Shown: one piece after another, positions 18,917-46,200 of the stretch
Numbering within the stretch: the first letter of the stretch is position 1
Layout of the letters: every line of letters begins with the position of its first letter
Source of the DNA: Lingula anatina
Lineage: Eukaryota > Animalia > Brachiopoda
Assembly (NCBI GenBank): GCA_051362555.1
Contig: CM120641.1
Coordinates: forward strand, 9,052,001-9,116,000
Length of the DNA: 64,000 bases
Direction: 5' to 3'
Position numbers and translations under genes: made by a program
The notes under the pieces: model-generated
What the model was told of the DNA's origin: nothing
The model's database searches: none
The model's input: only the letters and a program-made list of their open reading frames with translations

Positions 18917-21900
18917 TTAATGTAATTGCTTGATGCCAAAAATCTTAAATATGACCATGGCAATGACAATGAAACCAAAAATAAATCCACCAAGTGCTGC
19001 AAAGTTCCTTGTCATGTGGTCCAGTGCGCCAGGATAGAATAAAGTTATATACAGGCTGCCATTCCTCAAACATAGCACAGGATCTGTAATGCAACACATT
19101 ACATTTTCAAAATGCATATTTTTGAGTTAATGAATTTACAAATCTAGATTGAATGTTGACATTAGAATATGCAGGTGGGAGGATTAATGTTCATGGTGTT
19201 GCTAAAATTTAAACGGGCTTGGTCAGGTACATTATCTGGCTGAATACATGAATGTTATTTCAAGGATAACTATGGGTCTGTTTATGAAGCAGCGAAGAGC
19301 AAAGATCTGATTCTTATTCATCAGTTTTCTTATAAGACACAAGATATTGAACATAACAGTTAACTTCATACTTTAAATATGAATTTACCAATTTACCAAA
19401 CTACTGAATCTAACTTCGTTTTTAAAATGGGTAGAGTTAAGGTGTAGAAAATCATGACCTACCTGAACCACAATGCAGTGTGAGATTATTAAATTCATTA
19501 GCTACAAAGATTTCACCAGCATATTTGTATGGCGATGCCCAGGAAAGCCACTGGATAATCTCGGGCATGCTGCTGACAGTCCTGTTGGATGTAAAATTGT
19601 CAAATAAATTATCATGTTATAATATAAATTATCGTGTTTATAATAGCTGAGACCATGCATACTTAAAACAACTTTAAATTGATAAGAAATATAATAAAAG
19701 ACATACACTATTTTGATTATTATTGAAAGGAGTGAGAAGGACTGAATCAAGAGAAGGTAATAATGATTAGTTTGATATAATTACATACATGCAAATTAAC
19801 ATCTAAATGGTAACAATTTAGTGCGAAAAATGGCCTAAAAAGCAAGACTACCACCCCCTTTTAAAAATAAAAATGAGGGTCATTTTCTGTTGAACAGAGT
19901 GCATAAAAAGACTGCCTAGGTCACCTGCCTGAGAAAACCTGGAGCTATGAGACCAGATATTGTTAAAATAAGTGCTACAATGCTGCTTGCTACTCTTGGA
20001 TTTTGCATCATGCCCAGTAGGATGACCGTCATGATCTCGCCACTGTAGTGGAGGAAGAACACTGTGGCTGCATGCATAGCGTAGAGTTTTGGATCCGGCT
20101 GTAAGCCACATACCCTAAATGTAAATGGTGTTAACATTGCTTCTATAATTGGTCAAATATTTTAATGATGAACACTGATCTCGACAAATATGGATTTTAT
20201 GATTTTATGGAAAAGATAAACGGTGAATGACCGAAAATCTTGTGTACTCAGAAAACTGTTCTTCAGGAGGGAAACCCCACTTACTTTAAAAACTAAACGA
20301 AAACTAGTATTGAAATTTGATAAATGCCTGGCCATAACATAATATTTTATATGCTAAACGCTTTATACGTTATCTTGTAAGTGATTGATATCATTGAGCG
20401 GATATCAAAATATTTTCAGTATCAATAATATTAGGAAAAGGTCCCAGAACTGACAACACTAGTCTACGCATTTACGCGCATTCTTTGCATTATTTACAGA
20501 CTCCCATTGTTTACAGGAATTATTTTATTGTTGATAACATGTTAGACAACAGATCAACGCATTTTGAGTACTGTCATGTTAGCAACCGTGAGTTTCATGT
20601 TACACATGCTTTGTCGATGTCATAATAGACGTAGCCTTACAGGTAGTATCAACAGGAAAGAAGTGGTATAACCCAGACTTGACTTACCAATACGTAAGGG
20701 TGCTGTACAAAATTGAGCTTAAAATGCTAAAAGGCAGGGTGTAAAGGCAAAAAGATATCAGGAACGCTGGTAAGACATAAAGACCATCCCTGGATTCTCG
20801 GTAATATAGGTCCCGTAAGCTTGGAACTGCAAAGACAATATTGATCAAGGAATGGTTACAGTGTCAGTCTGTCAACAAATTTAGAGTTTTAACAAATTTA
20901 GAGTTTAAAAATCCTTTAACAAAAATTCATATAATCAAAATATCCCATTTAAAGGCCCTCGACTTCGGATGTACAGTTACAGTTACTTAATTTCTAGGCA
21001 TGTGTCTTTTAAATGAAATGTTGAGCTCCAGAGCGATACGTACATTCTTCAATGGTGTGAAGCATCGCAGAAAATGGTGGCACGGCTACAGTTTGGTATA
21101 ATAAACCTATTCGGTCCTGAATACTTTGTTGATTGTGCTGGAGTTTTCCAAGGAACAGGCAAATCATGCCAGCGAATACGGACTGCGTGAAGATGCGTAA
21201 GAAAAATGCACTTCGGTTTCTGTACAAGTTTACTAATGACCTCCTGTAAAATGAACGAAATATTTCCAGAAAAACAGAAGGCCCTACACCTAACGATTAT
21301 TTTTTTACACAAGTTAGAAGTGCTATGCCCTTCAAAACGTTGGATATGCAATGTTCAATATTCAAGTTTATCCGTAGACTGGCAGGCTGGATATCTTTTG
21401 TAACAAATATCTTCTTTTGGAATATAAGACGAACTACATGTATTTCTACATTTCCTGGGCCAGTGATTTGATTTTAAAATATCTACATGTTACATGGGGC
21501 CCCATGTACAACGGCAACACTCCACATACCTTACAAGTATGAAAAGGGACACAAAAAATCTTAGCATATTATTTGGATTCCACATCCATGAGACGCAAAC
21601 CCTTTCCCTTCCATGATCGTCGGCTTCCATAGCTTCTGTGATTTCACCAAGCATCGATATATAGTGCGGAGACTGCAATAAGTTGGCTCGCAGATAATTA
21701 ACCCTTTCGTCGGATTCTTTTTCTTTATCGGCACTTCTCGTGTCAATACTTGATAAATCAACTGTAATAAGAAATAAAAAAGATAACAAATTAGTTTATA
21801 AAACGCTTTAAATATATACTGTATTGGCAGTGTACCAAACAAAGTCAAATACCAATAGAGTTATACAAGATTATGTACCGCAAACTCCTTCAACCATTTT

Positions 21901-24010
21901 TTCTTATTTATTAATAAATTAAACATTGACTGATTTTTTTACGAAGTATGCATCTACATGAATACTGTATTACGGTTTTGTTTGCGTGATGCCATCTAGC
22001 TCATATGCCGACACCTGCACATACCGTAGTGGTCCAGTGGATTGGCGAATGTTGGACAGGGGTATCCAAGTCTGCTAAAATAGGGCACCATTTCTGTCGC
22101 CTTCCCAAAATATATCATTTCACCTCGAGACATAATCCCAACTTGGTCAAAAGTCTTATACAGTTCTGAGCGAGGTTGGTGGATTGTACAGAGAACGATC
22201 TTGTTTCTCTGGGCCAGCTCAGCCAACGTTTGTACCAAATAATGTGCAGTGAAACTATCCAGGCCAGTTGTGGGTTCGTCTAAAAGTAGCATCTCTTTTA
22301 AAATAAGAAAAAAAAAACGTTTTAGGTTTTAAGTACTTGTAAACATAACTGCTTTGCGATTTGATTGGAGTTATGAAGTTAGTCTATTTATAATTCAATC
22401 AATTAGTATATTGCAGAAATTGTTTTGCACACCGAGAGATTGACAATAAGGCTTTCTTTCATTTTATAGCTTATGGCTATTGAAATGTATATATAGTAAA
22501 ATACTATATTTCAATTCCTCGAATTCGCCTTGATTGCATGAAAGCAAATTCTTACGTGGGTTTTGCAGTAGTTGTATTGCAATTGTCACTCTTCTTTTCT
22601 CCCCTCCAGATATCCCTCTCTCCACCATGCCACCAATCCTTGTGTTCCGCACTGGTCTAAGACCCATCTCAGATATAACGGCTTCCACCTAAAACCGCAT
22701 ATGACATAACAGATAAAATACATGATGAGTACTGTTCATACTAATCTGACAAGTCTTTCTTCTTTGTGCTTGAAATAACTCAACCAATCTAGAATATATT
22801 TTTGTATTTGTATCGCCTCATGTAACAACCCTGTTCTCATTCATCAAATGGGTTTAAGTATTCCCTGAAATTGAAGAACAATATAACAATACAACTAGTT
22901 TTGTGCCAAAAGACAAATTACGTACTCTTTCCTTCAAATTTTTTGAAGATTTCCCGACAAATTTCAGTTTTGCTATATAAGTCAGTGTTTCTTTGACTGT
23001 GAGGTTGTCCATGAGTCTATCGGCCTGTATGACATATCCTGCAGATTCTATTAAACCTGGCGTCCCCCACACCAGTCCTTGTAGCTTGCCATTGCTCCCC
23101 ATGCGATTGCAGATTACGTCTAACAAAGAAGTCTTCCCGGAACCTAGAATTAAAGCACATTATTTCATTCTCATTCTTTTATAGTGAAATTTTTGTTATC
23201 TCGAATCTAGTGCTTCATTTATACATAGACAAAATAAAAATTATAATACAAAATTCACTAGCATAGAAAACGAAATATTAGCTAAAAGCACTTCAATAAA
23301 TCGGATTTCGATTCCGTTTTGGATAGTTCTTCATGCATGCCCAATGTCAACTTAACCGCCTGGAGTTTATTCAGAAAGAGAAAGAAAGAAATCCAGTGTG
23401 TTCCCAATATCCATATTTAAATTTCCTTTAGGACAAACTAATTTCGTTGTAATCCCTCGCCATTATGAGACTATGCATGATATCGTATTTATCTGCAACT
23501 AGTGCAGTTTAAATATTATAAAGAATGTACGTTTGATTCACATAATGGTGTAGTCCTTATCAATTCCATTATTCAATTCATTTTTGAAATGAATCGCTCT
23601 GAATTGGTCATGTGACATTTTTTACTTTGATGTACTGTCACTATTGGGAATTTCATCACGGTACAGTTCTCTTATCTTAGCAGAACATATTACTTTTAGA
23701 GCCCCATACCAGAGTTTCCAAGAATTGCCGTCAGTTGTCCACTCCTGGCAATTAAACGAACGTCGTTTAGAATTTCTTTGGTTCGGCGAACTCCCAACAG
23801 CGTGTTCTTCCACCATGGTCCACGATCCTCCTTCACGCTGTAGCTAACGCCCTCCAGGCACAGAGTAAACGGAGTTTGTAAATCTGCCGGGGTGTAACAA
23901 CGGTAGGAGTTGGAGATTTGCCCCGACGAGCCTGGCGAGTAAGACCCTCTCTTGTTCTCATGGGAAGGGAGAAGCGGCGAAGTTTCCGACACCACAGGTG
24001 TGCTCGTCAT
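18917..24010 (-). CDS. ABCG5: ABCG5-like sterol half-transporter, about 10 exons
   Basis: Walker A GNSG|SGKTS, signature ISGGEKRRV, Walker B LLLDEPTTGLD, IHQPRSE, ANPLDHY|VDLSSIDTRS. TMD motifs IQDRIGLLYQ, FPSLRDLYYRESRDGLY, LHYSGEIMTVILLG and YPGALDHMTRNF match the ABCG5 subfamily. Head-to-head with ABCG8. Confidence 0.88.
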
Positions 24011-25206
24011 CCTTCACAACTTCCACTGAACTATACGTTTTCCTTACGTAAAACCTTACGTTTTCCTATTGAATGAACGTTTGACTGCATCTACCGAATA
24101 CGAAACTAAAAAATGATGTTATGAAAGGCTGGATCTTTACTGAAGGTGGTATTGTTGCTGTATTGTTCACCTGCATTGGCCCGGGTCAATATATAGAATC
24201 TTTCACTTGTGTCACATGCTCAGTAAAATCCAGACGCCTGTAACGCATTGTAGCTGGCATATCAGGTTAAGAGCTGTTTTGTTATTATCTTTATCGGTGA
24301 TAATTTTCAGTACCTATGTGAGTGCGTATGTACGTACGCTTATCAATTATTGCTTTACAAAATCTCGTTATGCTTAGTTATTTGTATTTCACATATTTAC
24401 AATAGTCAGTGTAGGCCTATTGGGGAATGTATTGGGAATGTATTACCGATGCATCGAACTGGTACTTATTCATACATAACGATATATATCTATGACAGCT
24501 TCCGCGTTCTTCATAATCAAGCGCATCTGGGAAGAAAAATTACACACTCCCTTTCCCATCTTTCGATCTTTGGGTGTTTTTAACAGACTTGGTCACTGTA
24601 ATTTGGCCACTATTCTGCATAACCCTCACAAGACTCATTTGCAGTTCATCTGCATTATTTTCGTAAAACAGACTGTGCCGATTATTTCCAGAACAATAAC
24701 CATGTCGGTGATGTTTTGACCATTTGACCGACATAATAGATATGTGCACTGGCGATTAGTACATTCTAATCTTTGTTTATGATGCTCTTGGCGGTGGGGG
24801 AGATATCAGTTGGACGGCATTATTAAACTCGTAAATATCTTGCTGCACGTGATCCTATGTCTTCGATAGACGGATCAGGAGTAGGTGTAGACTTTACCCG
24901 ACGTGGAAACCTGTTGTCTTGACTATCGAGGTTAGACCGTGAATTGGTTTGAGGCGGTTTTGAAGAATGTCGCGTTCAAAACGGTAAGAAGAGTACATGT
25001 ATATGAAGATAGTCAGTGACAGGCTGCATTGTTAACTTTTGCATCCTAAATGGAATGAGTGAGTGCCCGTGTGGTGCCGCCCAAAGTAAAACCCATGTTC
25101 ATTTATTTGCTATTTACAACTCGTATGTAGGGGAAGTCGGTATCATAAGATCGTTGCCGTTATTTAAGTGAATCTAAATTATATTATTTAAACTATTACA
25201 GCCCAG
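24011..25206. promoter_or_regulatory. Shared bidirectional ABCG5/ABCG8 intergenic promoter plus probable ABCG8 5'UTR exon
   Basis: Divergent ATGs at 24010 and 25207. Donor GTAAG at 24984 and acceptor at 25201 suggest a non-coding first exon. TTACGTAA palindrome near 24045. Confidence 0.55.
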
Positions 25207-26658
25207 ATGACGGGGCCAGATATGGAATCAGTAGATGAGAGACGTGACGCTATCAATACAAGATACGAAGAATACATTTCGTCCTATAGTCACCACTTAC
25301 CGATGAATTTACAGGTGGGTTTTTTCTTCTTTTTTTTTTCTTCTTAGACGCGGAAAAGAAATACTGATGTATTTCAAATATTTTGTATTGGCATTATTTC
25401 TTTGTAGTATGATGCTTGTTATGAAGTAAATATGTGGAATTGTCTATTTTTCAACAGGAATTGAATAAGTAAAATTTAATGAATGCAATGTAAAATGTAT
25501 CTCACATAGAAAAATAAAAGATAAGACAAAGTTGAAAAGAAGGAAAGAAACACTTAAAGAAAATTTAATTAAAGGGCTTCGATTCGTTCGTTCCAGGCTC
25601 AAGACGTATCCTATATTGTAGCCGAGGGAATGGCTAACATGTGGTGGGCGCGACTCACGTCCCTTCAGATGCCCTGGGAATGGACTCGGGGCCCGAAAAG
25701 GAAGAAGCGCGTCCTGAATGGGGTGTCCTTTCAAGTGAACTGCGGGCAAATGTTGGCCATACTGGGGAGTTCGGGTAAATTATATAATTTTTGTTTGTTA
25801 GGCAAACTGTGTTTAAATTTCAGTTTTTGGTCTTTCTTTCTTTCACTTTTTTGCCCCCTCCCTCACTCCCTCCTTTCTACTTTCCTACCTTACTTCATTT
25901 CTTTATTTTTGTTTTGAACTAACTTAACAGCACTGGGGTTTCCGATTTCCCCACTCATTAACTGCAGTTGCTTCGTAAAAATTCAAAACCCAAACCTATT
26001 TTAGGTAAAACAGTATATCAAAGATATAGGGACTATCAGTGCGCCTATGTAACAAACGGTGTCAAAAAGTGTAATAAATATTAAATTTTTAAAGTGGCAC
26101 TGCTTTTAGGTAGTGGCAAGACGTCCCTGTTGGATGTTTTGGCTTGTAGACAGACTTCAGGGGTACTTACAGGCCGAATTACTGTGAACGGCGTCGAAAG
26201 AACAGAAACGATGATAAAGCGACACGCGGGCTATGTCAGGCAAGACGATCGATTGTTACCAAATCTGACCGTGAGAGAATCGTTAATGTTTGTAGCCCAC
26301 CTCAAGCTACCCACGTCTTTCAACAAAGAACAAATAGAGACTAGAGTAAGTCATATATATTTTTTCTAGATGCACAGCGGGCTGTTTTCAGGGTTGATCT
26401 TGAAACATTGGGTTATATGTATGGAGTGACCTTATGGTTTATTTAAAAGGTCAAACTCTAATCCAGTTGAATTTTCTCAAAACCACTGATATTTTAGATG
26501 ATAAAAAGTATACAATAAATAAATAAAAAATGTAACTCTGAAATTGTGAAATAGATGTTTTTAGTTACCTTATGTTACATTTTCGATACTGATTTTATTA
26601 TATTTATTAAGGCCATAAGATGTGATAATATATATTTTTTGATAATCAAAATACTTCC

Positions 26659-26706
<48 letters not shown>

Positions 26707-27269
26707 AAAGGCCCGGATCAAATCTAGTCCCATGCATAAAAAGCCCAGACCCCATGTTTATTACGCCCTGGCTGGGCCCATTCTTTATGGTGTCTGCATT
26801 GTTAACAGCATAATCGGCAAGTTAAGTGACCAAGTTAATTGGCCAAGCTGCCAGTTTGTTTGTGTGGCATGTGCAGGGGATGTCTTAGATCAAGGCACAA
26901 ATGAAGCCCATCTTTAATTTAACATTTATTTAGTAAATGTTACTTAATCAATCTACATGTCTTTTCTTTAAACATTAAACATCTTTAAAAGTATCATCCT
27001 CTGATGTATTTTACAAATCTCATGTAATGAAATACAAGTATATCTCATTTGCCACACCTGTAAGTATCATAATATGTGCCTTGATCTAAGACATCCCCTG
27101 CACATGCCATACAAACAAACCGGCAGCTTGGCCAATTAACTTGGTCACTTAACTTGCCCATTATGCTGTTAACAATGCAAAGACACCATAAAGAATGGGC
27201 CCAGCCAGGGCGTAATAAACATGGGGTCTGGGCTTTTTATGCATAGGACTAGATTTGATGCGGGCCTTT

Positions 27270-27315
<46 letters not shown>

Positions 27316-30300
27316 TGGACAGTGTGGTAGCTGAACTGGGCCTCAGACCAGTGTATGACAGTAAAGTTGGGGGCGCAGAAATACGCGGCATATCTGGGGG
27401 AGAAAGGAAAAGAGTCAGCATAGCAACTCAACTACTTGTGGATCCAAGTGAGTATGTTTGGCTTATTTCATTATTTTTTTCCTTGTGGACATATATCTAT
27501 GCATACACCAATGCGCATATGTTGACTTAGAGTGTATTTTGCTGATTATGCTGATATTCTGCGTGTGCACAAAGGTTTGCTTTAGAGATATCTAAAGTAC
27601 TTTTAATAATATTGATAAGGCTGCAGCATGGGTAGTGTCAATAGTAATTTGAAAAAGCATTTTTTTAGTATCATTTGAATTTTATCCAAATACTTATCAT
27701 GTGAATTTCAGGTATTCTGTTACTAGATGAGCCAACGTCGGGTCTCGACTCATTCACGGCGCATCATTTGGTGGAAACTCTCTCAACGCTGGCGAAGAAT
27801 AACCGCACAATACTCTTAACGATACATCAACCAAGGTGTGGGAATGGTGTAACATTTTGACTGATTTTTGTATTGTAAAGGGCGTCGTTGGTGGGGTTTG
27901 TTTGGTCAAAGAAAAGAAAAAGACGTTTGCTGGAGACATGGGTAGTATTTTAAGTATTCAGCGACCACCACTTTACCGAGTCCAAAACTCTAAATTGCCC
28001 CATTATAGACGATTTCAAGCCCGCCTTTGCATGTACACCCAAACCCAAAGAAACGGTAACAATTACACTCCTGGCGTTTGTGTTAAATAACAATTATTTA
28101 ATCAAGGGTTAGAAAGGTTGGTGCTTAAAAAAAAGATTTGAACATTTCTTTCGATAGAAAATGCGGAACTTTACGACGACAATCCCCTCGCTCCCAAACG
28201 ATACTTAAACGATTCGTTTAATTCATCCAAAAGTATGGCCGTTACAAATATTCGTATGCAATTGCGTTTTAGATGAAATGAGATAAAGAATCGAAGTATG
28301 TGACAATGCTTTTATTTTAAACGTTAAAACAGGTTATCGGTCTGATTTTGTGATAATATAAGTTACTCAAATTGGCAACTAGTTAATAGTTATCATTTGT
28401 TGTATTATCTTTAATTTTGTTTTTTAATCAATGTTAAGGCCAGTTTAATATGGGTTTATGCATGTAATTGAAACTGTACGCGGTTTCAGGTCGGACATCT
28501 TTAAACTGTTTGATCTGGTGATGATCTTAACTGAGGGCAATGTTGCATATTATGGAGAAGCTGCCAAAATGATCCCATATTTCACCAAGCTACAATACCC
28601 ATGCCCAGAATTCACAAACCCGTGTGATTTTTATGGTGAGGTTTGGCGTTGGTCTTTGAATGTAGGCTCTATCCACTTATGTAGGTGCCATCAAATTTAT
28701 ATATATAAGCGACGTAACTGTTTACAATCCTTTTTCTTTAAATTTAAGTTGTGAAAACCGAACTGAAATATTAGATTTGTTGTCTTCTCAGTTGATCTCT
28801 GTACAGTCGATACAAAAACTGAAGTCACAGAAATAGAGTCTTCCCGTCGGGTGGATTCCTTGGTGAAACAATACTCCCAGGAAATGTTACAAAATGATAG
28901 CGGAGCCTTTGTTAACGGCGCAGAGGACGAACCTACAAGACTTCGAAGGGACTTGGAGGCCACACGACTGTATCTGCCTGGGTGGTTTACGCAGTGGGCA
29001 GTTCTGACAAGGTAGGCCAAATGAACAGACTGAAGCTAGTGAAAATTTCAAGGAAAGGGGTTACATTTACAGAAAACGGCTTAGGTGTCAGAAGAAACAT
29101 GAAACATTTGCCGTTTGAGTATAGAGTGTTGCAAATGCTTGGGAGAAAAGCGCATACATCACCTACTAATAAGTTACATTTACGTTACACGTAATATCTC
29201 GTAATATGTTTGACTTAGAGTTACAGAAGTATAACTGTTGAACATTCAAAGTGAATTCTAACGCTCCGGAGATGTGGGATTCTAACCAATTCTTAGAATT
29301 GAATTTATAAGGTGCCCTTATCAAAACTTTCACTTAAATGTCTTCTTCATCCTCGACCAAATTCTTCAACGTATCTGTGAAAATGAGGATGGGGAAGGGA
29401 ATGAAATACACAGCTAAATAATAAAAAATTCTAATTCTCATTTTAATGAATTCCAGGCGTGCTCTGATCAACAATTTCGCCGACTATGGTTTCCTCCTCG
29501 TCCAAATTGCGGAAAGTGTATTTATGTCTCTCGTTATCGGCGTGGTCTACCTGAACCTTCAGTTTGATCAGTATGCCATGAGGGACAGGTTCGCCTTGAT
29601 GTTTATTTTGGGTGCACTCTACCCGTACATGATGGTCGTGGATGTTGTTGGCAAATGTAAGAATAACTCTGCAGACTAAATTTTTAGTTCCCACTTGCAC
29701 CGTTTTGTTATATCTTTTCTATGAATTACGTGTGCTGAGCTCTGTAAGACTATATGGTTATAGGTTTTTGCCCCCCCCCCCCAAAAAAAAAAAAAAAAAA
29801 AAAACTGAATAAGAAACATACTCGAAAAAAAAATTGTGAACTGATAGCTTACATATTATTTGACGGAGAATATTTTGTTTTTTTTAGATCATAAAGAAAG
29901 ATGGCCACTTTATCATGATCTTCAAGATGGACTGTACACCCCTGGACCATTTTTCTGGGCAAAGGTAAAATACTGTGCTTGTTTGACAACACACACACAC
30001 ACATTTCAAAGCAGAAAAAAATATGCGGAATATTATATTTACTAGAAAATTCCACCAGATTCAATGACCAATTTGATTCCGTCTCTATTGCAGCTCGTCA
30101 GTGAGATTCCAGAACACACACTATTTCTGATCCTGTATTCAGTTCCTTATTACTGGTTGTCCAACATGCAGAATGATGCCTTACTATTCTTCCAAACGTT
30201 TGTGATTCTGTTTCTCACTGCGTACTGTTGCCGCTGCGTCGGCATGGCGTTTGCTGCCGTCTTTCCCACATGCCAATCTGCCACCACTTCTGCACAAGGA

Positions 30301-30506
30301 TTTTTTGCAACTATGCTACTCTCTGGTGGCTTCATTATTAACATGGATAATTTATTTGAAGGTAAATGTTATTTCCTTCGTTTCTTCTCTATAAAAGTTC
30401 CAACCAATGAAACATTTATAAATGAGGTGAGAATATTTTGTGACCTTCAATATCTTATGGATGTTCATGATTTAGACAAGCAAAAAATACTAACCATAGG
30501 TTTAAA

Positions 30507-30545
<39 letters not shown>

Positions 30546-30856
30546 ATATTATAAATATTGCCATGATCTTATTGATTTTCTTTACCTATACAGGTATGAA
30601 ATGGTTATCCAATGTGTCCTTTCTGAAGTGGAGTTACCAATCCTTATGTTTGGTTGAGCTACCAGGGTTGAACTTTACCTGTCCCTTGCCAATAGGCACG
30701 TGTATTCATAATGGGTCGGAGGCCCTGAAGTACTACTCAATGGAAAATATAGAGATGTGGAAAAGCTGCACTATCCTTGGAGCAGAGTCCATATTTTTCC
30801 TTATTGTATTTTACATTGCCTTAACATTCATTAGTCAGAAACCACAAGAGTCATAA
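25207..30856 (+). CDS. ABCG8: ABCG8-like sterol half-transporter, 11 coding exons
   Basis: Exons about 25207-25314, 25597-25774, 26110-26346, 27315-27447, 27712-27835, 28490-28635, 28792-29011, 29457-29656, 29888-29964, 30094-30361, 30594-30856. ABCG8-type motifs [94 protein letters not shown] and terminal ISQKPQES*. Confidence 0.9.
26703..27273. mobile_element. MITE with about 197-bp TIRs (TGT...ACA ends) embedded in (TA)n
   Basis: 26703-26899 is a near-perfect reverse complement of 27075-27273 (TGTCAAAGGCCCG...CGGGCCTTTGACA). About 40-nt TA tracts on both sides. Confidence 0.92.
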
Positions 30857-34500: not shown

Positions 34501-36087
34501 CTGGCAATTTCAATGTCTTCTTTTGACATGCCTTTGTGAGATTTACTTGAAGCCACAGGTTTAGCTGCTGACTGTGGTCTAGAATGTGTGGTGCCAGTCT
34601 CAGGATTATCTAGTGCAGCCATCCTTCTGAGATTATAACAGTGTTAACATTTATAAACATATTAAATATCCAAACATCAAAATGGTATAAATTATGTAAC
34701 AATAATTAAAATATCAAGTTGGAATATCCTTGCTGAGAAAAATGATTCGCAACCAGTATATTAAGTTATATATTATATATTTTTGATAAATATATATTTT
34801 ATATATATTTGTGAAATGGTTTAAATATATGAAAATAGTCTGTTTATTCACTGTAGTGCTTCTGGAATTATAGTTTTAAATTAACTGACAAGTACTGATA
34901 AAATACCTTTATAAAGACTTACTTTTTGAAGGCAGCTGGGGGAGAGTATTTAGATGTATATGTATCTTCCTGTCTTTTGCTAAAAGTAAACTGTAAGAAT
35001 TATTCATTTATATAAACATTTTTTTGGTTTTCACAACATAAAATGCTTGACTTCTGGTCCTGGAAACTCTTACTCAATTTCCTTTTAATGGTGATGATTT
35101 GTTATAATTAGCTCTGCACTCTTTGTCAATATCATTGGTTTACGCCACACTTTTCAGTACAAATTTATAATCATAAACTATGATTAGCTCGACACTCTTT
35201 GTCAATGTTATTAATTTACATTATAACTTTTAGTACAAATATTAACCCTATGTGAATCATACACTGAAATTTCACAGCAACAATACATTATTCACTGATT
35301 AGGTGTTTTTGTAATTAGATAAAGAAAAAGGAATTTGATTTTAGTTTTGGAGAAACTTACCCAGATAGAATGTCATAACACTTCTGACACACATGGTGCA
35401 CTTCACTATTGCGTTTTGGCACTGCAATTTTACTACTCACACACTTACTACAGAAGCCAAATCCACAGTTCTTACACCCATGCTGCAAAGGAATTAAGCA
35501 ATGAAATTGACATTTTTTTCTAAAGTGTAAAAAAAGGGTTGGATTCTGCGTACAAATCAAGGAATGCCTACTCACAGAATAAATCAAACTTTTCTGACTC
35601 TGGCATACTCATCCAGTTAAACATTATGTTTGAGTTTTTATATATTCACTGGATGTATCTGATGTAGTGCAGTTACTTTTAAAGAAGTAAAAAGTGTAAT
35701 TGTAAATATTCATGTATCAGTGTCTTATTTATATGAAATTTACATCAAAAGCATAAGGGGGAAATTTCATATTTCTGCGAGATCTGACTTTTTTTTTGTG
35801 AGAAGTACTTTCGCAGAAATATTGACATAGAAACCGCGAGAGAAATTCAGAATCCTCCAATTTTTAATATTTGTCACAGACATTTACTACATCAGCACAT
35901 GTACCAGCGGTCCTGCTACTTAACGGAATCAAACTTATTTACTATAGATCTACCAGTAACCAGTCAGTGAAAATTTAATCAATTAATGTCAAATGATGGT
36001 AAAGCCTCGGATATAATTCTATACCTCATTTACCTCTTTCTTAAATATCCCAAATTCAGTAGCACAAGAATAACATTTCCCTGACAT
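31552..36087 (-). CDS. ZFYVE19: ZFYVE19/ANCHR abscission-NoCut checkpoint regulator, about 12 exons
   Basis: N-terminal FYVE-type finger [18 protein letters not shown]|[14 protein letters not shown]...VCQKCY, then YSPPAAFKK and [15 protein letters not shown]-terminal [29 protein letters not shown]|EGHD, with TGA at 31552-31554. Confidence 0.92.
35107..35243. repeat. Two diverged tandem copies of a ~76-bp unit
   Basis: ATTAGCTC..CACTCTTTGTCAAT...AGTACAAAT repeated at about 35107 and 35183. Confidence 0.65.
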
Positions 36088-36430: not shown

Positions 36431-39400
36431 ATGTGGAGAGCGTGTACGTCGCCGCAATGGCATTTAAGGCCTTGTTGCTATCACAAAACAAAACATTTTC
36501 TGTTCAAAAGATTTCAGGGCGTTGCTGTGCTGCAAATTGCCAGGCTGAGTAATAACAACCCATGGACAGACTCGAATTCAGCGGGTAAAGTTGTGGTCAA
36601 CTTGGATGAAAATACAGAGTGAGTACACGCTTGCCCACGCTCGGCTGTCACCTTGATTGGATAGTAAACGATTGTCGTAAAATCGCTAAATGATATTAAA
36701 ACCGGGTTCATAAACTTGAAAACCACCTAGGACAACCTTAGACTGCCACATTAATCCAACACAATGCAAAAATAAACTATAACAAGTGGTCCACTCTAAC
36801 CTCCAATTACGAAAAAAGAAGCCATGCCATTGGACAATACGACCTCTGCGGTTACGTCATTTCCTGAAATGGAGGTTAGAGTGGACCAAAATAAACATCA
36901 GAGGTGGAATTTTGATTTATGGTTTGACCATGCACGGAATTTACAAACGAGCGACGGGATGATGTAGCCTGCAGTATTTGCGGTAAGCGTGCCAAGTTTT
37001 AGGCCGCTCCGATGCCCGGCAGTATTTTATTTTGATTATTATGTTGAAAATGGTCGAGTTTTGTTTCACAAGCTGACTCTATTTTATTGTCTCTATGGAG
37101 GTATATGGGGACTTTACGACATTCGGTTTGAAGGCTTTAACCACTTGTTATAGTTTATTTTTGCATTGTGTTGGATTAATGTGGCAGTCTAAGGTTGTCC
37201 TAGGTGGTTTTCAAGTTTATGAACCCGGTTTTAATATCATTTAGTGATTTTACGACAATCGTTTACTATCCAATCAAGGTGACAGCCGAGCGTGCGCTTG
37301 CCTGAAACTTGCAATACATTTCCACAGCTGAACATCCTTTTGAAATGCCAAAATGTTGAATGATTTTTATCCAAGGATTTTGCCAAGTTGAAAAAAGATT
37401 TGGAAAAATGTTATATTACATCCCATGTTTTATTAGATTGAAGTTTGTTTTCCTAAAACAAAGATAAGCTAAAAACTAAACAGTTCAAAGTTGGAAGGAT
37501 AGAAAAAGTAGAAAGGGTTGAAGTCTGAGCACCTTAATAATTAAGATGTATTGTAGGTAAACTCACAAAGTATTCAGTATAAACAGAGTGTTACAACAAG
37601 GTTAGCTTTAATGTTTTCCTTCATCTGCATGTTAATTTGATTTTAAATTCAAATCCATTTTTTCAAGAGAAAATTGGTTCAGAATGCAGATCAATTAAAA
37701 ACATATTTTGTTTCAGTTTTCATATAAATGTTTAGCTTTTCAGTTCTTTAAGAGCAAATTGATATTAAATTATAACATATTCATCCAGTCCACATATATA
37801 GGTCCCCTGAAACACTGTTTGTGCTCTGCCAACCACTGATATATCTGTGAACTCGAGATCACCAGTTTGATCGTATGTCACTGCCATTTCTCCCCCTCTG
37901 TTGACAACACGCTTAATCTTTTTATTTGGTTTTTCCCTTGTTTTGAACTTCTTCTTTTTGAAGGCAAGGGCAATAGCTGCTGCAACAGCACTTGTTCCAC
38001 ATGACATTGTCTCCAACTCTAATCTTCGATTATAAGTACGCACATGTATTTTACGATCTTCATCACAGTGAACAAAACTGATAAGATCTCCATAATATCT
38101 ATATCCTTGAGAATCCAGACTTTCCTTGTGAAGATCCAGACTATAAACGTTTGGTTTGAACTGGATGTGATGGGGTACCCCAATTTCAACATAATAGTTC
38201 AACTCATCCAGCTTGGTTATGGTGTCCAAATCATGAAATTTAATCCTTATTGCATGTTCTTCTGCATAGGACTTGGCTGAGTGAATTCCATGTCGTGATT
38301 TGAAATAAATCTCTGCCTTCAAGGATAACTTAATGTCTATTGCGTATTGTATGGCGCACATCATTGCCATTGCACACAATGATCCAGGTTTTCCTTGTAT
38401 GTTGTAGAAACTCATTTCAAAGTCCCAGGAAGGATGACTTTGGATGGCTATCAAGCCCTGTGCACCAATTCCAGTGTGTCTCTCACACATGGTCTTGATC
38501 ACATCTTCATTGCAGGCGAACGTGTTCTGCCGATTATCAACAATAAGGAAATCACTGCCTAGTGCTTTGTATTTGTGAAACTTTATACCGGACATGTCGT
38601 AAAATAAGTTGTAATCTAAGTCAAATTATTTACAGACTGTTCCTTTGCTTCAAAGTCCCTGTTTCCAACAGCAGTGGCTTGTTAATTGATTGAACCATGT
38701 CAGTGGATTGCTGACATGATCTCATGTGATGCAGCCAGTTTTCAGCTAGGCCCAATATTTCAGCTATTCTAGTGATTGTTATAACACATGTAAAGTGGGT
38801 GGATTTAAAATGATAGGCAGGATATCAAGAATAATCAGCCATAACAATAGGTCTAAACAAGAGATAAAGATAAACAGTTCAAAATAAGTATTTGATATGG
38901 TTATTATCTACTCATCAGATGTTGTTAAATGCATTTTAATTATCGGAAGTTGGATTGTCATGATTTTTTTGTTGTTGTTATGGTTTAAGAAGACGGCAAC
39001 AATACTTATAGAAATGATAACATTATTTTTTCAATAGAATAACATAAATAGAAAAAGTCGGTTATTTCTGAACCTTTTAAAGACTATATAAAAACTTCTT
39101 ATGAAAAGAATTTAGTCCTAGTTTGATATAGTATTTCATGGGTTACTTATATAGAAAATTGCACACAGTATGATGAAAATTGGCATTATTTCTATTTTTG
39201 ATATCATTTGATCAAAATGTTGTTGTTTATCTCCTCGAGCTCTGACAAATAACCAGCATTCTGCATGTGAAAAGGAAAATTCAGGTTTACAATAAGTTTT
39301 ATAGATGGGTCAATCTTTTAAATTTCATTTATTTCTAGACCAATCAGAATATCCTGTGGTCAGTTCGCAAGAATGGCAAGTGGTAGTGCTGTAGCAGAGG

Positions 39401-40378
39401 TAGGAGAAAAACTTATATTATCACATATACCAAAGGTGTCGATATTCAGTATATTTATGGAAAAGCAGCTTGTCTAGACAAACAAGGAATCCTAATTCTC
39501 TGCTTATGATTTACACCATACAAATGTCTCTCTATTATACCAAAATAAGTTAAAAAAATTCCAAGTAGTAGAGGAATTGCAACAACATAAAATGGTAACA
39601 TTTGTTGATGAGCAGCCCATGTTTGGTTGTTTATGCATCATTTTATGCAATTCACATGTTTGATTACCCTTGCAGATTGGTGACACTGCAGTGATGGCCA
39701 CTGCAGTAAGCAAGTCTTCTCCACCCACTGCAGGTCAGGGATTTATGCCATTATCTGTAAGTCATGCTTTTTGTCCCTCAATTTTTTTCACTTAAAACAT
39801 GCAAGTGTTTTCACAAAGTTTTGCAGTTAATATATTGTTATTGTTAAATAAACATTTTTAGATAAGAGAACTTAAATGCAGATAGCCTCCATAATTTTTA
39901 TCCTAAAAGAGAAAGCTAAATTTAAAACTGTCTTTTAAATTAGAACCATTCCCCAGTATTTTCTTTTTTTGTACAGACACAGATGTGTCTGTACATATAG
40001 CCGTCATCTGCGTCTGTCGTCGCCGTCGCCGTCGTCGCCGTGCACTTTTACCGATAACACGATAAGTGGAAAACTGTTTTTATGTACAGACACAGATGTG
40101 TCTGTACATATAGCCATCATCTGCGTCTGTCGTCGCCGTCGCCATCGTCGCCGTCGTTGCCGTCGTCGCCGTCGTTGCCGTGCACTTTTACCGATAACAC
40201 GATAAGTGGAAAACTGTTTTTTCTTTTGGCTTGAAACTTGCAGGACTGATGAATATTCATAATACGCAGGTCAAGTTCGAAAATCAGCATGATCGGGTCA
40301 CTTATAGGGAATTTATGCTGTTTTTATGTACAGACACAGATGTGTCTGTACATATAGCCGTCACCTGCGTCTGTCGTC

Positions 40379-40409
<31 letters not shown>

Positions 40410-43226
40410 GCGTGCACTTTTACCGTAAACACGATAAGTGGAAAACCATTTTACGTTTTGACTTGAAACTTACAGAACTGATGAATATTCATAATATTCA
40501 GGTCAAGTTCGAAAATCAGCATGATCAGGCCATTTTTAGGGAAGTTATGCTGTTTTTTCACTTTTTTCAGCATATATGCAACACCGTAAACACGATAAGT
40601 GGAAAACCGTTTTACCTTTTGGTTTGAAACTTACAGAACTGATGAATTTGTATAATACGCAGGTCAAGTTTGAAAATCAGCATGATCGGGTCATTTTTAG
40701 GGAAGTTTTGCTTTTTTTTCACTTTTTTCAGCATTTATGCAACACCGTAAACACGATAAGTGGAAAACCGTTTTACCTTTTGGTTTGAAACTTACAGAAC
40801 TGATGAATTTGTATGATACGCAGGTCAAGTTCGAAAATCAGCATGATTGGGTCATTTTTAGGGAAGTTTTGCTTTTTTTTCACTTTTTTCAGCATATATG
40901 CAACACCGTAAACACGATAAGTGGAAAACCGTTTTACCTTTTGGTTTGAAACTTACAGAACTGATGAATATTTATAATACGCAGGTCAAGTTTGAAAATC
41001 AGCATGATTGGGTCATTTTTAGGGAAGTTATGCTTTTTTTTCACATTTTCTCTGATTCAATCCTTAGGCATGTTAATAGTCTCATTATTGAACTAATAAG
41101 ATATGTAAAAGTGTTTTTTTGACATTTCCTGCATTTTTACAACATTGTTAGTTGATTATGTAAAAATGATGGTAAACTTGTTATGTTGTATTGTGTAATG
41201 AAGTGTCAAAAATGGAAATAAACACATATCATTGCAGTTTGTCAGATTCAATCATCCACTATGTTCAGAATCTCAGAATGGAGGAAATTGGACATTTAAT
41301 ACTGTTCTATTGATATTTTTCCCATCTCATCAATTTTCTTAGTTGGTCATATAAAAATGGCAGTAAACTGTTAATTTTGTTTTATGTTAAAAAAGTGTTA
41401 AAAATGGAAATAAACCCATTTCAGAAAAGTGCTGTCTTGTTTACATTTTGGCATTTTCAAGATGTGACTTTGAAGTTCCATGGGCCTGAAGACCTTTGCT
41501 AGTCACATTTTCTGAATATCCATGATACTAATATTTTATTATTAAAAATTGATGGTCATTATGCTGTTAAACATTATGTAATATTGCATCAAAATTTGAA
41601 GAAACCCCTATTTTGGGCACTGCTCCCATGATGACCATTTAAGGAAAATCATGTCACTTACTGTTCTCAAACTTACAGGAAAGAAACATGGGACTAAAAT
41701 ACAGCTTCAGTAGGCAATGCAGTCTGTTTGGTAATTTTTTCTGGCAGTTAAACAGTTTTTTGTGAAAATTTAATTTTTCACATATTGGCATTTTCAAGGT
41801 GTGACTTTGAAGTTCTATGATCCTGAAGACCTTTGCTTGTAACATTTTCTGAATGTCCATGTTACTAATATTCTATTATTAAAAATTGATGGTCATTATG
41901 CTGTTAAACATTATGTAATTCTACATTAAAATTTGAAGAAACCCCTATTTTGGGCACTGCTCCCATGATGAGCACTTAAGGAAAATCATGTCACTTACTG
42001 TTCTCAAACTTACAGGAAAGAAACATGGGACTAAAATACAGCTTCAGTAGGAAATGTAGTCTGTTTGGTAAATTTTTCTGGCAGTTAAACAGTTTTTTGT
42101 GAAAATTTCATTTTTCACATATTGGCATTTTCAAGGTGTGACTTAGAACCTCCACGGGCTTGAAGACCCATGCTAGTCACATTTTCTGAAAATCCATGAT
42201 ACGTATATATTATTATTAAAAATTGATGGTCATTATGCTGTTAAGCATTATGTAATGTTGCATCAAAATAGAAGAAAACACAATTTTTGGTGCTGCTGCC
42301 ATGATGACCATTATGGGAAAACCGTGTTACTTATGACTGTCAAACTTTCAAAAAAGAAACACAGGACTAAAATGCAGCCTGAGTTGGAAAAGCAGTCTAA
42401 TTGGCTTCTTTTTCTGGAAGTTATACATTTTAGTGAAAAATTCATTATTATCGTGTTGGCATATTCATTGTGGGACTCGGAGCTCCCATGGACATGAAGC
42501 AGAATAGTAATCAAATTTTTAAATGCCCATGCTATTTATAGTCAATAATCAAAAATTGGTGATAATTATTATATAATTTATTATGTAATGTTACATCAAA
42601 ATTGACAATAATCTTTTTGCACTGCTACTGCAAACATTATGAAAAGAAAACTGTGTTACTTATTATTATTTTTAACTTATGAGAATGATTTTTAGGATTG
42701 GCATGCATTTCAAATTAGAAAGCCAGCTCAATTGGGTTATCTTTTATCATTGAATTCATGCAATTTTGTGTGAAATTTTCATTTTTCTCATTCTGGCACT
42801 TTCAAAGTATAAACTTGAACTCTGATGGGCCTGAAGCCTTATGCTTTTACTTTCATTGGTGTTACCTGTTGTGCATAATTAAAATTTGATGTTGACTGTG
42901 CAGTTAAACATAATGTATTATTGCATCAGAATTGGTAGTCTCCTATTTTGTGCATTATTGTTATGTGCTTTTCTTAAGATGTGACTTATGGGCCTGAAAG
43001 ATCTTTGAGAGGGTCAGTCTGTAAATTTCCCTTGGGTATCACTTGGGTATCACTCAGAGTTATAAAGTCATTAATAGGCCATTAAATGAGATTACATAAA
43101 GCACACTTGTTGATATTTCCCTGTAAACTCCCAAAGGTTAAGCTCTCTGCTAGATTAATAATAAGTAAGCAGTGATAATTATGCAGGTAAATTTTGTTTA
43201 ATATTGCAAATAATATTGCAAATAAG

Positions 43227-43277
<51 letters not shown>

Positions 43278-46200
43278 ATTAAAAGTTTGAATGGCAGCAT
43301 CATTGGAATTATATTTACCTCTGCCAAGGAGGTTATGTTTTCACCCCTGTTTGTCTGTCATCCACATAACACAAAAAAGTTATGGACCGATTTTGCAGAA
43401 ATTTTCAGGAACTGTCGGAAGTGGGCCAAAGAGGACAATGATTAATTTTTGGTGGTGGTCCGGATCAATAATCAATCAATTATCAATAATAATCAACAAT
43501 TGCTGCCTTGACAGAGGTCTGCACTCTCAAAGTGCTTTTCTAGTTTTGTTGTTTTCCTTTATAATTTTTTCTCAAACACTTGCATTTGTGACTTTTAACT
43601 CTCATCTGCCTGGGGCTCTGCACATTTTCTGTATTTCTACATAAGCAGTTGTATTGTTTTTTATGTCTTTAAACATTATGTAATATTATTTTATGCACTG
43701 TCATCATTTTTCAAATATTGAGACTTTCATAATGTGAATTTGAACTCTCATGGTCCTGAAACTGTAATCTTATTGAAGGGGTGGATTGAGACCATCTTCT
43801 GGGTCTTCCAGAAGACATTCAGGTTATTGAGTTTATATTGACTGGTATCTATTTTTTTCTGTTGGAAGACCATCAAAATGGAGGATGGATCAAGATAGAT
43901 ACTTTGTAATACTGTCAGAAAATATCTCTGGGTCTGCTCCTGTTATTGACCATGTTACCTGTTGTGCAAAATTAAAATTCAATGTTGACTGACAGTGCTA
44001 TTATAAGCATTATTTATTATTGCATCAAAATTGACAAAATGACCTTTTTTGCATCTTTATTTTCTGTTTTTTGTCTGTACATTTGACAGCTTTGCTGCCT
44101 TGTTTCTTTTGGCTTGAAACTTACAGAACTGATGAATATTCGTAATACGCAGGTCAAGTTCGAAAATCAGCATGATCGGGTCACTTTAAGGGAATTTATG
44201 CTGTTTTTTCACTTTTTTCAGCATATATGCAGCACCGATAACACGATAAGTGGAAAACCATTTTACCTTTTGCCTTGAAACTTACAAAACTGATGAATAT
44301 TCATAATACGCAGGTTAAGTTCGAAAATCAGCATGATCGGGTCACTTATAGGGAATTTATGCTGTTTTTTCACTTATTTCAGCATATATGCAGCACCGAT
44401 AACACGATAAGTGGAAAACCATTTTACCTTTTGGCTTGAAACTTACAGAACTGATGAATATTCATAATACGCAGGTCAAGTTCGGGAAACAGCGTGATTA
44501 GGTCATTTTTAGTGAATTTAGGCTATTTTTTCTCTTTTTTCAGCATATATGCAGCACCGATAACACAATAAATGGAAAACCATTTTACCTTTTGGCTTGA
44601 AACTTACAGAACTGATGAATATTCATAATACGCAGGTAAAGTTCGAAAATCAGCATGATCGGGCCATTTTTAGGGAAGTTTTGCTGTTTTTTCACTTCTT
44701 TCAACATATATGCAACGCTAATAACACAATAAAAGAAAAACAGATAGGCCAATTGTCATTATACTCACAGGAGTAGTCAAACTAACTAAAACGCAGGTTG
44801 AGTTCGAAAATAAGCATAATCGGGCCATTATTTTAGAAGTTATGCTGTTTTTTCACATTTCCTCAGATTCAATTGTTAGGCATGTTAACTGTCTCATTAT
44901 TGAACTAAGATACGTAAAAGTGTTTGTTTGACATTTCCTGCATCTTAATAACATTGTTAGTTGATAATGTAAAAATGATGGTAAACTTGTTATTGTGTAT
45001 TATGTTATAAAGTGTCAAAAATGGAAATAAATATCATTGCAGTTTGTCAGATTCAATCATCTACTATATTCATTATCTCAGAATGGAGGAAATTGGACAT
45101 TTAACACTGTTCTATTGATATTTGTCCCATCTCATCAATTTTCTTAGTTGATCATATACAAATGGTAGAAAACTGTTTATTTTGTTTTATGTTAAAAAAG
45201 TGTTTTAAAAATGGAAGTAAACCCATTGCAGAACAGTGCTGTCTTTTTTCAGCATATATGCAGCACCGATAACACGATAAGTGGAAAACCATTTTACCTT
45301 TTCCCTTGAAACTTACAAAACTGATGAATATTCATAATACGCAGGTCAAGTTCGAAAATCAGCATGATCGGGTCATTTTTAGGGAAGTTATGCTGTTTTT
45401 CACTTTTTTCACCATATATGCAACACTGATAACATGATAAGTGAAAAATCATTTTACCTTTTGGCTTGAAACTTGCAGAACTAATGAATATTCATATTAC
45501 GCAGGTCAAGTTCGAAAATCAGCATGATCGGGTCATTTTTGTCTGTACATATAGCCATCATCTGTGTCTGTCGTCGCCGTCGTGATTGGGCTATTTTGAG
45601 GGAATTTATGCTGTTTTTTTCACTATTTTCAATATAAATGCAACACTGATAACACAATATAAGAAAAACGGATTGGCCAATTGTAATTATACTCACAGGA
45701 GTGGTCAATCTTACTAAAACGCAGGTTGAGTTCGAAAATCAGCATAATCGGGCCATTATTTTAGAAGTTATACTGTTTTTTTCACATTTCCTCAGATTCA
45801 ATTCTTAAGCATGTTAACAGTCTCATTATTTAACTAATAAGATGCCTAAAAGTGTTTGTTTGATATTTCCTGCATCTTTACAACATTGTTAGTTGATTAT
45901 GTAAAAAACATGGTAAACTTGTTATCATGTATTGTGTAATAAAGTGTCAAAAATGGAAATAAACTCATATCATTGCAGTTTGTCAGATTCAATCATCCAC
46001 TATGTTCAGAATCTCAGAATGGAGGAAATTGGACATTTAACACTGTTCTGTTGATACTTTTCCCATCTCATCAATTTTTTTAGTTGGTCATATAAAAATG
46101 GCAGTAAAATGTTTATTTTGTTTTATGTTAAAAAAGTGTTAAAAATGGAAATAAACCCATTTCAGAACAGTGCTGTCTTGTTTACATTTTGGCATTTTCA

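What the first reader, a model, noticed from the sequence alone, without database searches (positions are those of the whole stretch)
37990..38560. DapF-like active site is remodelled: both cysteines kept, DAP-binding residues changed
Seen: Cys74 and Cys199 are retained, but GNDF becomes GSDF, GADG becomes GAQG, MCGNG becomes LCAMA, the NxxF Asn becomes LISF, ERG becomes NRR, and CGTG becomes CGTS. Known: in H. influenzae DapF, Asn11, the C73-G-N loop, Asn190 and Glu208 bind the proximal and distal ends of diaminopimelate. Inference: the substrate is probably not DAP. It may be a new racemase for free D-amino acids, which are common in marine invertebrates, or a candidate for the L-to-D peptide isomerase activity of molluscs, which to my knowledge is unidentified. 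It could also be a pseudoenzyme.
Basis: partly seen in the sequence, partly recalled or inferred. Interest (0 to 1): 0.8.

Follow-up and report, generated by a model that had tools for sequence, protein, structure and literature searches.

The report
Lamp-shell DapF with rewired substrate pocket
A lamp-shell (brachiopod) genome carries an intact, intronless gene for a bacterial-type diaminopimelate epimerase that keeps both catalytic cysteines but has changed several residues that grip its usual substrate, so it likely works on a different molecule, or has lost catalysis, while related mollusc genes look normal.

Summary
Observation confirmed. Window 38595→37765 (-) is an intact, intronless 276-codon DapF-fold gene among intron-rich animal genes, 99% identical to Lingula anatina XP_013407720.1 (a brachiopod, not a mollusc). 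Cys74 and Cys199 are kept and cap helices in the model. Equivalents of Asn11, Asp43, Asp66, Asn75, Gly76, Asn190, Glu208, Gly210 and Gly220 carry residues seen in 0 of 375 non-animal relatives. New context: Mytilus, Haliotis and Gigantopelta carry Bacteroidota-like DapF genes with canonical motifs, forming a loosely supported animal clade that probably includes this protein. Best reading (0.45): a horizontally acquired DapF retuned to a carboxylic-acid substrate lacking DAP's distal amine. Main rival (0.33): pseudoenzyme or relaxed, decaying gene; three RNA runs gave zero reads, listed variants give pN/pS 0.4-0.5, and no second species with this pocket was found. The molluscan peptide-isomerase idea is not supported: no signal peptide, canonical mollusc homologues, and the Aplysia activity is abolished by reductants.

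The parts
37765..38595 (-). Intronless ORF, 276 aa, DapF-fold protein (P0001)
   Evidence: Pfam PF01678 E 2.5e-19; TIGR00652 122.2 bits, cut-off 114.65; model pLDDT 87.2, Foldseek to DapF structures TM about 0.75-0.8
38554..38556 (-). Ser14, at the Asn11 position (proximal amine contact): changed
   Evidence: 0 of 375 relatives have Ser; role from PMC8225329 passage and PMC12039745 section 6
38458..38460 (-). Gln46, at the Asp43 position: changed
   Evidence: Asp in 374 of 375
38395..38403 (-). Asn65 (Asn64 position, distal contact) kept; Gln67 (Asp66 position) changed
   Evidence: Asn in 375 of 375; Gln67 in 0 of 375
38365..38376 (-). Cys74 kept, followed by Ala75-Met76-Ala77 in place of Gly-Asn-Gly
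   Evidence: helix 75-87 starts directly after Cys74 in the model
38170..38178 (-). Val140-Pro141-His142: Asn157 position is Val (11 of 375), His159 position kept
38083..38085 (-). Leu171, at the Asn190 position (distal carboxylate contact): changed
   Evidence: Asn in 375 of 375 relatives and 22 of 22 animal-like ones; follows a short deletion in the alignment
38023..38031 (-). Asn189-Arg190-Arg191: Glu208 position changed, Arg209 position kept, Gly210 position changed to Arg
37990..38001 (-). Cys199-Gly200-Thr201 kept, Ser202 in place of Gly
   Evidence: helix 200-214 starts directly after Cys199 in the model
37429..37434 (-). AATAAA, possible polyadenylation signal 331 bases after the stop codon
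   Evidence: function not shown

Best explanation
This intact, intronless DapF-fold gene, likely taken from a Bacteroidota bacterium by an ancestor of this brachiopod, keeps both catalytic cysteines but has lost the residues that hold DAP's two amino groups, so it likely no longer epimerises DAP and is predicted to use the same two-cysteine proton swap on another small carboxylic acid. Shown: the open frame, the fold family, the kept and changed residues, and canonical homologues in molluscs. Predicted from the model and from solved DapF complexes: Cys74 and Cys199 sit at the N-termini of two helices; the reacting carboxylate can still be held by the backbone NH groups of Ala75, Met76, Gly200 and Thr201 and by the Thr201 hydroxyl; Arg190 and Asn65 can still hold a second carboxylate. 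Inferred: with Glu208→Asn, Asn11→Ser, two further Asp→Gln changes, an added Arg191 and a more hydrophobic lining (Met76, Val140, Leu171), the pocket suits a dicarboxylic substrate without a distal amine, such as glutamate, 2-aminoadipate or 2-aminopimelate, an N-substituted amino acid of the opine type, or an amine-free dicarboxylate. One cysteine would remove the alpha proton and the other return it to the opposite face, in the cytosol. The substrate list is my inference and is untested.
For: Fold and family: (Atlas model, TM 0.87 to a Bacteroidota DapF cluster). In Anabaena DapF the proximal carboxylate takes four of its five hydrogen bonds from backbone NH and one from Thr OG1, and the thiolates are stabilised by helix dipoles and backbone NH (PMC12039745 section 6 part 1); all of these can survive in P0001. 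Side chains with mainly functional roles are kept (N65, C74, H142, R190, T196, C199, T201) although the branch is 1.9-3.5 changes per column and identity to consensus at moderately conserved columns is only 0.36. Changes cluster in the pocket: 10 of 23 near-invariant pocket columns changed against 2 of 19 elsewhere, p 0.037. The distal pattern is roughly the mirror of PddB, which keeps Glu208, loses Asn64/157/190 and Arg209, and acts on a diamine without the distal carboxylate (PMC8225329). The frame looks protected: in four assemblies all 5 listed indels lie in the 3' flank and none in the 831 coding bases, including a contig with 67 other letters over about 1480 bases; no stop among 20 listed coding variants. 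Gly→Ala at 75 (18 of 375) and 77 (5 of 22 animal-like) and Ala at 202 (6 of 375) have precedent in relatives.
Against: No activity data. Zero reads on 37340-38675 in three raw RNA runs of the same species label (1.3-1.8 Gb read each) while the neighbouring FYVE gene's exons had depth of about 1-8 and a spliced joint; tissues unknown. The 20 listed coding variants are 8 synonymous and 12 non-synonymous, pN/pS 0.41-0.54, p 0.04-0.11 against neutrality, and include T196S, M197V and V140I beside the pocket (35 of 75 rows were not shown). No second species with this pocket among the listed hits, nor. The pocket set was drawn after I had seen the motifs; at the 90% threshold the contrast is 13 of 27 against 9 of 38, p 0.06, and on the 11 literature contact positions 6 of 11 against 16 of 53, p 0.17. 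With 13 of 23 pocket columns kept, keeping both cysteines by chance is not rare (about 0.3, my arithmetic). PddB and HisR keep or are proposed to use Asn11, Gly74 and Asn75 equivalents; the protonated alpha-amine is thought to aid catalysis.
Confidence: 0.45

Rival explanations
1. A pseudoenzyme or a gene under relaxed selection: the brachiopod lineage stopped needing DAP epimerisation, the pocket drifted, and the fold is kept as a scaffold, ligand binder or redox-sensitive protein, or is slowly decaying.
For: 12 of 42 near-invariant columns changed, more than any of the 375 relatives (at most 7) or the 22 animal-like ones (at most 9); long branch; zero RNA reads in three runs; pN/pS 0.41-0.54 with variants at motif positions; a differently altered pocket in the unnamed P0032/P0176 (N14K, N65S, R190H, T201A) suggests repeated loosening in this group; bacterial DapF has a non-catalytic role in binding RppH (PMC13728532 passages).
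Against: Both cysteines, H142, N65, R190, T196 and T201 survive a very long branch; the Gly replacements are small residues; no indel or stop in the coding variants listed.
Confidence: 0.33
2. Still a DAP epimerase, though a poor one, used with a decarboxylase to recover lysine from bacterial DAP.
For: Scores above the TIGR00652 equivalog cut-off (122.2 against 114.65); keeps R190, N65 and both cysteines; mollusc homologues look canonical; whiteflies use horizontally acquired dapF and lysA for lysine supply (PMC8659303, seen as search listing and abstract start only).
Against: Asn11, Asn75, Asn190 and Glu208 positions are invariant or nearly so in 375 relatives and all are changed here; 80 of 80 bacterial loci keep all five motifs tested.
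Confidence: 0.08
3. The unidentified L-to-D neuropeptide isomerase of molluscs and their kin.
For: Loss of the alpha-amine contact would suit an acylated residue; the Aplysia activity needs no metal, is thought to use a two-base mechanism and is reduced by chloroacetamide (PMC11277431 passages).
Against: No signal peptide (best 19-residue hydropathy mean in the first 30 windows 0.42) and an in-frame stop 11 codons upstream of the ATG; the Aplysia activity has a pH optimum of 5.8-6.1 and is abolished by reductants, while DapF is obstructed by a disulfide between its catalytic cysteines; mollusc homologues keep the DAP pocket; no Aplysia homologue was among the named hits; the kept carboxylate nest suits a free carboxylate, whereas Aplysia substrates such as GFFD are inverted at an internal residue.
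Confidence: 0.03
4. Bacterial contamination or an assembly chimera.
For: Intronless and of bacterial type.
Against: Lies among intron-rich animal genes (FYVE, ABCG, TARBP1 domains); held in 10 runs of 4 studies, one possibly the source; a contig from another study spans the gene and both flanks (X10, 37416-38900); GC 0.397 and GC3 0.38 match a host exon (0.386, 0.35).
Confidence: 0.01

Closest known systems
Diaminopimelate epimerase DapF (PF01678, TIGR00652), Bacteroidota type
   Same: Fold, length, 30-37% identity, both catalytic cysteines, His159, Asn64, Arg209, Gly218 and Thr219 positions.
   Different: Asn11, Asp43, Asp66, Asn75, Gly76, Asn190, Glu208, Gly210 and Gly220 positions changed to residues absent from 375 relatives; lies in an animal genome.
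Mollusc 'diaminopimelate epimerase-like' genes (Mytilus, Haliotis, Gigantopelta aegis)
   Same: Bacteroidota-type DapF in animal genomes; probably the same transfer (clade with P0001 at 90/97, 93, 82/88 without active-site columns).
   Different: They keep the canonical DAP contacts; identity to P0001 is only about 32%.
DapF-derived racemases PddB (2,4-diaminobutyrate), HisR and CntK (histidine), DcsC (O-ureidoserine)
   Same: DapF fold with two cysteines and a retuned distal pocket (PMC8225329, PMC11602996 passages; 7vdy and 6jis among the Foldseek hits).
   Different: PddB and HisR keep the proximal Asn11/Gly74/Asn75 set; P0001 does not. PddB keeps Glu208 and loses Arg209; P0001 does the reverse. 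All are bacterial.
Bifunctional DapF/glutamate racemase (NF038284)
   Same: Shows by its name that the DapF fold can turn over a substrate with a distal carboxylate and no distal amine.
   Different: P0001 scores 57 bits against a cut-off of 350; not a member.
Horizontally acquired dapF in whiteflies, mealybugs and choanoflagellates
   Same: Bacterial dapF in a eukaryote genome (PMC7971027 passages; PMC8659303 and PMC6838666 as search listings).
   Different: Those are described as serving lysine or peptidoglycan pathways; I did not test whether they share an origin with the mollusc/brachiopod genes.

Membership tests
DapF/PLP-independent epimerase fold (PF01678) | Profile match above the curated cut-off and two-domain DapF fold | tested here: met
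   70 bits against 34.7; model pLDDT 87.2, best Foldseek hits DapF and DcsC, E 1e-20
DapF (bona fide DAP epimerase) | Two catalytic cysteines at helix N-termini | tested here: met
   C74 and C199; helices 75-87 and 200-214 in the model
DapF (bona fide DAP epimerase) | Signature C-G-N-G-x-R after the first cysteine (PROSITE PDOC01029 as quoted in PMC8225329) | tested here: not met
   C-A-M-A-M-M
DapF (bona fide DAP epimerase) | Amine contacts Asn11 and Glu208 | tested here: not met
   Ser14 and Asn189, each 0 of 375
DapF (bona fide DAP epimerase) | Distal carboxylate contacts Asn64, Asn157, Asn190, Arg209 | tested here: inconclusive
   Asn65 and Arg190 kept; Leu171 changed (0 of 375); Val140 where the subfamily has mostly Ser (11 of 375 Val)
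DapF (bona fide DAP epimerase) | Proximal carboxylate nest (backbone NH of four residues, Thr hydroxyl) | tested here: inconclusive
DapF (bona fide DAP epimerase) | LL/meso-DAP interconversion | not testable with these tools
   Needs an assay
Bifunctional DapF/glutamate racemase NF038284 | Score above curated cut-off | tested here: not met
   57 against 350 bits
Animal (mollusc-containing) DapF clade | Groups with the named mollusc genes against bacteria | tested here: inconclusive
   Inside the clade and loosely in 52; outside or unresolved; long branch; most members of the clade are unnamed records
Metazoan peptide L/D isomerase | Secretory-pathway protein (signal peptide) | tested here: not met
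   No hydrophobic N-terminus; in-frame stop upstream. An unseen upstream exon is not excluded
Metazoan peptide L/D isomerase | Inversion of a residue inside a peptide | not testable with these tools
   Needs an assay

The most novel reading that the evidence does not exclude
An animal has domesticated a bacterial peptidoglycan/lysine enzyme and rebuilt it into a cofactor-free, two-cysteine racemase or epimerase for its own dicarboxylic or opine-type metabolite: a new kind of animal stereo-inverting enzyme, arising from an undescribed Bacteroidota-derived DapF family shared by molluscs and brachiopods, in which a second lineage (P0032/P0176) has altered the pocket in a different way.
Probability: 0.4. 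Interest if true: 0.72.

Novelty: new variant of a known kind. Interest (0 to 1): 0.52.

Why it matters
Animal amino-acid racemases that I know of are mostly PLP enzymes (recalled; the reference list of PMC11277431 names a PLP-dependent racemase in Aplysia). A cofactor-free DapF-derived inverter with a new substrate in an animal would add a route to D-configured metabolites in marine invertebrates and give a clean case of enzyme retuning after horizontal transfer, with canonical mollusc homologues as ready controls. Apart from this protein, canonical dapF genes in mussels, abalone and a vent snail raise the question of what animals do with DAP. None of my paper searches found these genes described (searches returned 0 papers; listings showed none by title), but the library lacks most subscription journals. 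If the protein is dead, the value falls to an example of decay after transfer.

Tried and rejected
No whole genome is held, so I could not test for a second, canonical dapF or for lysA in this animal; only one Lingula protein (P0002) was listed, but one search also missed known members such as P0027 and P0032, so this is weak. Within the window there is no second copy. Expression: no RNA holder listed. Contig X5 (kind guessed as DNA, 61 Mb in all) covers 37422-38681 as one piece with no loose end, from 86 bases before the ATG to 7 bases past an AATAAA, and an X9 contig of another study stops at 38672, where X8 and X10 go on; this is transcript-shaped but neither run is on record as RNA, so it is a weak hint only. 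Metagenome scan with P0001: 149 pattern matches, none a relative. Genome scan with A3: best 80 of 570 kept, all 80 with canonical motifs; its patterns favour canonical N-termini and the scan stopped at 11 of 64 parts. Atlas search without PF01678: best scores 0.85-0.88, leads only. Sister relation of P0001 to P0032/P0051 (98/97, 96) vanished when 46 active-site columns were dropped, so I do not rely on it. FastTree and one quick tree did not place P0001 in the animal-like clade. VIA-align was busy three times and gave nothing. A search for opines in Lingula listed no paper on that by title; the opine idea rests on my recall that marine invertebrates make them and on listings for molluscs and corals. 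Earlier findings of this scan: none. No complex was predicted. Supplements were not read; the residue alignments in those of PMC8225329 and PMC11602996 could sharpen the comparison with PddB and HisR.

Full report
What is there. Window 38595→37765 on the minus strand is one open frame of 276 codons, with a chance of about 1.5e-9 at local base composition. It matches Pfam DAP_epimerase (E 2.5e-19) and TIGR00652 DapF just above its cut-off (122.2 against 114.65 bits). It differs at 3 residues from XP_013407720.1, an uncharacterised protein of the brachiopod Lingula anatina. Its neighbours are fragments of intron-rich animal genes with FYVE, ABC-2 transporter and TARBP1 domains (6 of 12 fragments matched). 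The stretch is held by 10 sequencing runs of 4 studies, one of them possibly the source, and a contig from another study spans gene and flanks with 67 other letters (X10). GC and GC3 (0.397, 0.38) resemble a long host exon (0.386, 0.35). It is a resident animal gene, not contamination.

The observation. I aligned the 399 proteins then held and set aside P0001, P0002 and 22 that I judged animal-like from names and trees; the other 375 include near-duplicates, were chosen by likeness to my queries, and are DapF by annotation, not by assay. The Lingula residue occurs in 0 of 375 at S14 (H. influenzae Asn11), Q46 (Asp43), Q67 (Asp66), M76 (Asn75), A77 (Gly76), L171 (Asn190), N189 (Glu208), R191 (Gly210) and S202 (Gly220) (numbering counted from the 1gqz row). 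L73 (64 of 375), A75 (18) and V140 (11) do occur. Kept are G47, N65 (Asn64), C74, H142, R190 (Arg209), E195, T196, C199, G200 and T201. Of 66 columns conserved in at least 90%, 44 are kept and 22 changed. Of 42 columns conserved in at least 97%, 12 are changed, against at most 7 in any of the 375 and at most 9 in the 22.

What the changes mean. PMC8225329 (passages) gives for H. influenzae DapF: Gly74, Asn75, Gly218, Ser219 for the reacting carboxyl; Asn11 for the reacting amine; Glu208 for the distal amine; Asn64, Asn157, Asn190, Arg209 for the distal carboxyl. PMC12039745 (section 6, first of two parts) adds that in Anabaena DapF the reacting carboxylate binds four backbone NH groups and one Thr hydroxyl, and that the thiolates are stabilised by helix dipoles and backbone NH. 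The AlphaFold2 model (18 sequences, pLDDT 87.2, pTM 0.87) starts helices at 75 and 200, directly after the two cysteines, and Foldseek ranks DapF and O-ureidoserine racemase first. So the catalytic frame and the reacting-carboxylate nest can be intact, half of the distal carboxylate clamp is kept, and both amine contacts are gone. Three acids near the pocket became amides and an arginine was added. I infer a substrate with a second anion and no distal amine. PddB shows roughly the opposite distal pattern for a diamine substrate. Against a plain amino-acid racemase, PddB keeps and HisR is proposed to use the Asn11/Gly74/Asn75 set, all changed here.

Selection or decay. Changes are concentrated in the pocket: 10 of 23 against 2 of 19 near-invariant columns, p 0.037; at the 90% threshold 13 of 27 against 9 of 38, p 0.06; on the 11 literature contacts 6 of 11 against 16 of 53, p 0.17. 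I drew the pocket set after seeing the motifs. Concentration fits both a new substrate and a dead site. For constraint: seven functional side chains survive a branch of 1.9-3.5 changes per column; all 5 indels listed from four assemblies fall in the 3' flank, none in the frame. For relaxation: of 20 coding variants among the 40 rows shown (35 not shown), 8 are synonymous and 12 not, pN/pS 0.41-0.54, p 0.04-0.11, among them T196S, M197V and V140I. Three raw RNA runs with the same species label gave zero depth over 37340-38675 while the FYVE neighbour was covered and spliced; tissues and whether those animals carry the gene are unknown.

Relatives. The nearest named bacterial proteins are Bacteroidota DapFs at 29-36%; 80 of 80 loci kept have canonical motifs. 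The 50% library gave 8042 hits; among the 150 listed none but P0002 exceeds 39% identity or shares this pocket. Several top hits are animal: Gigantopelta aegis, three Haliotis species and three Mytilus species, all named 'diaminopimelate epimerase-like'; five tested keep every DAP contact apart from Ser/Thr at the Asn157 position, the subfamily norm. With unnamed records they form a group nested among Bacteroidota: SH-aLRT 96 without P0001, 90/97 with it (33 rows), 93 (35 rows, quick tree), 82/88 with active-site columns removed (36 rows). These trees used subsets that I chose from the roughly 400 proteins. P0001 is a long branch; its starred join to P0032 and P0051 depends on active-site columns, and two trees left it outside. 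One old transfer shared by molluscs and brachiopods is therefore likely but not shown; donor and direction were not tested with a rooted AU test. P0032/P0176 have a differently altered pocket (N14K, N65S, R190H, T201A).

The peptide-isomerase idea. PMC11277431 (abstract and passages) confirms that the Aplysia enzyme was uncharacterised at the gene level in 2024, and reports a pH optimum of 5.8-6.1, loss of activity with DTT, TCEP and BME, and sensitivity to chloroacetamide and DEPC. P0001 has no signal peptide and an in-frame stop shortly upstream, DapF is obstructed by oxidation of its cysteines (PMC13728532 passages), and the mollusc homologues are canonical. I give this 0.03.

Literature. 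Searches for 'diaminopimelate epimerase' with 'horizontal gene transfer' and 'mollusc', with 'Lingula', with 'abalone', and for 'brachiopod', 'racemase', 'D-amino acid' returned no paper. Searches gave listings only; they show horizontally acquired dapF in whiteflies and mealybugs, and PMC7971027 (passages) reports it in a choanoflagellate. The library lacks most subscription journals, so this does not show that the genes are undescribed.

Verdict. A real, strongly altered DapF-fold gene in a brachiopod. It should not be filed as a DAP epimerase, because the signature and both amine contacts fail; it likely works like one chemically, if it works at all. New-substrate two-cysteine isomerase 0.45, pseudoenzyme or relaxed gene 0.33, weak DAP epimerase 0.08, peptide isomerase 0.03, contamination 0.01, other 0.10. 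New variant of a known kind; interest 0.52, held down by the single species, the empty RNA lay and the lack of any substrate evidence, held up by a sharp, cheap test with natural controls.

Noticed in passing
P0049, P0079, P0180, P0181, P0400-P0402 (named records): Canonical-looking Bacteroidota-type dapF genes in Gigantopelta aegis, three Haliotis and three Mytilus species, on chromosome-scale contigs; no paper on them found in my searches.
   Followed up: partly
P0032/P0176 (unnamed ENA records): A second DapF of the animal-like group with both cysteines kept and a differently altered pocket (N14K, N65S, R190H, T201A in P0001 numbering), plus a long low-complexity insert before the last strands.
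   Followed up: partly
P0179 and P0408 (unnamed ENA records): Two related DapF types (clusters of P0051 and P0295) list the same longest-contig length, 228145, which may mean tandem duplicates.
   Followed up: no
window about 21500-24013 (-) and 25570-30850 (+): Two ABC-2 (ABCG-type) transporter genes head to head, as vertebrate ABCG5 and ABCG8 are (recalled); orthology not tested.
   Followed up: no
window 36626-37304: MITE-like element between the FYVE gene and the DapF-like gene: 165-nt inverted arms, 97% complementary, 349 nt apart; RNA reads from other copies lie on it.
   Followed up: no
window 40422-45540 and 56601-56992: Tandem arrays with periods of about 160 and 337 bases; the part laid (40012-44000) draws RNA depth up to about 1000, mostly from diverged copies.
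   Followed up: no
window 38697-38719: Short inverted repeat about 100 bases upstream of the ATG and just beyond the ends of contigs X5 and X9; seen by eye, not tested.
   Followed up: no
window 35482-36034: Spliced joint (CT..AC on the plus strand) of the minus-strand FYVE-domain gene seen in all three RNA runs.
   Followed up: no
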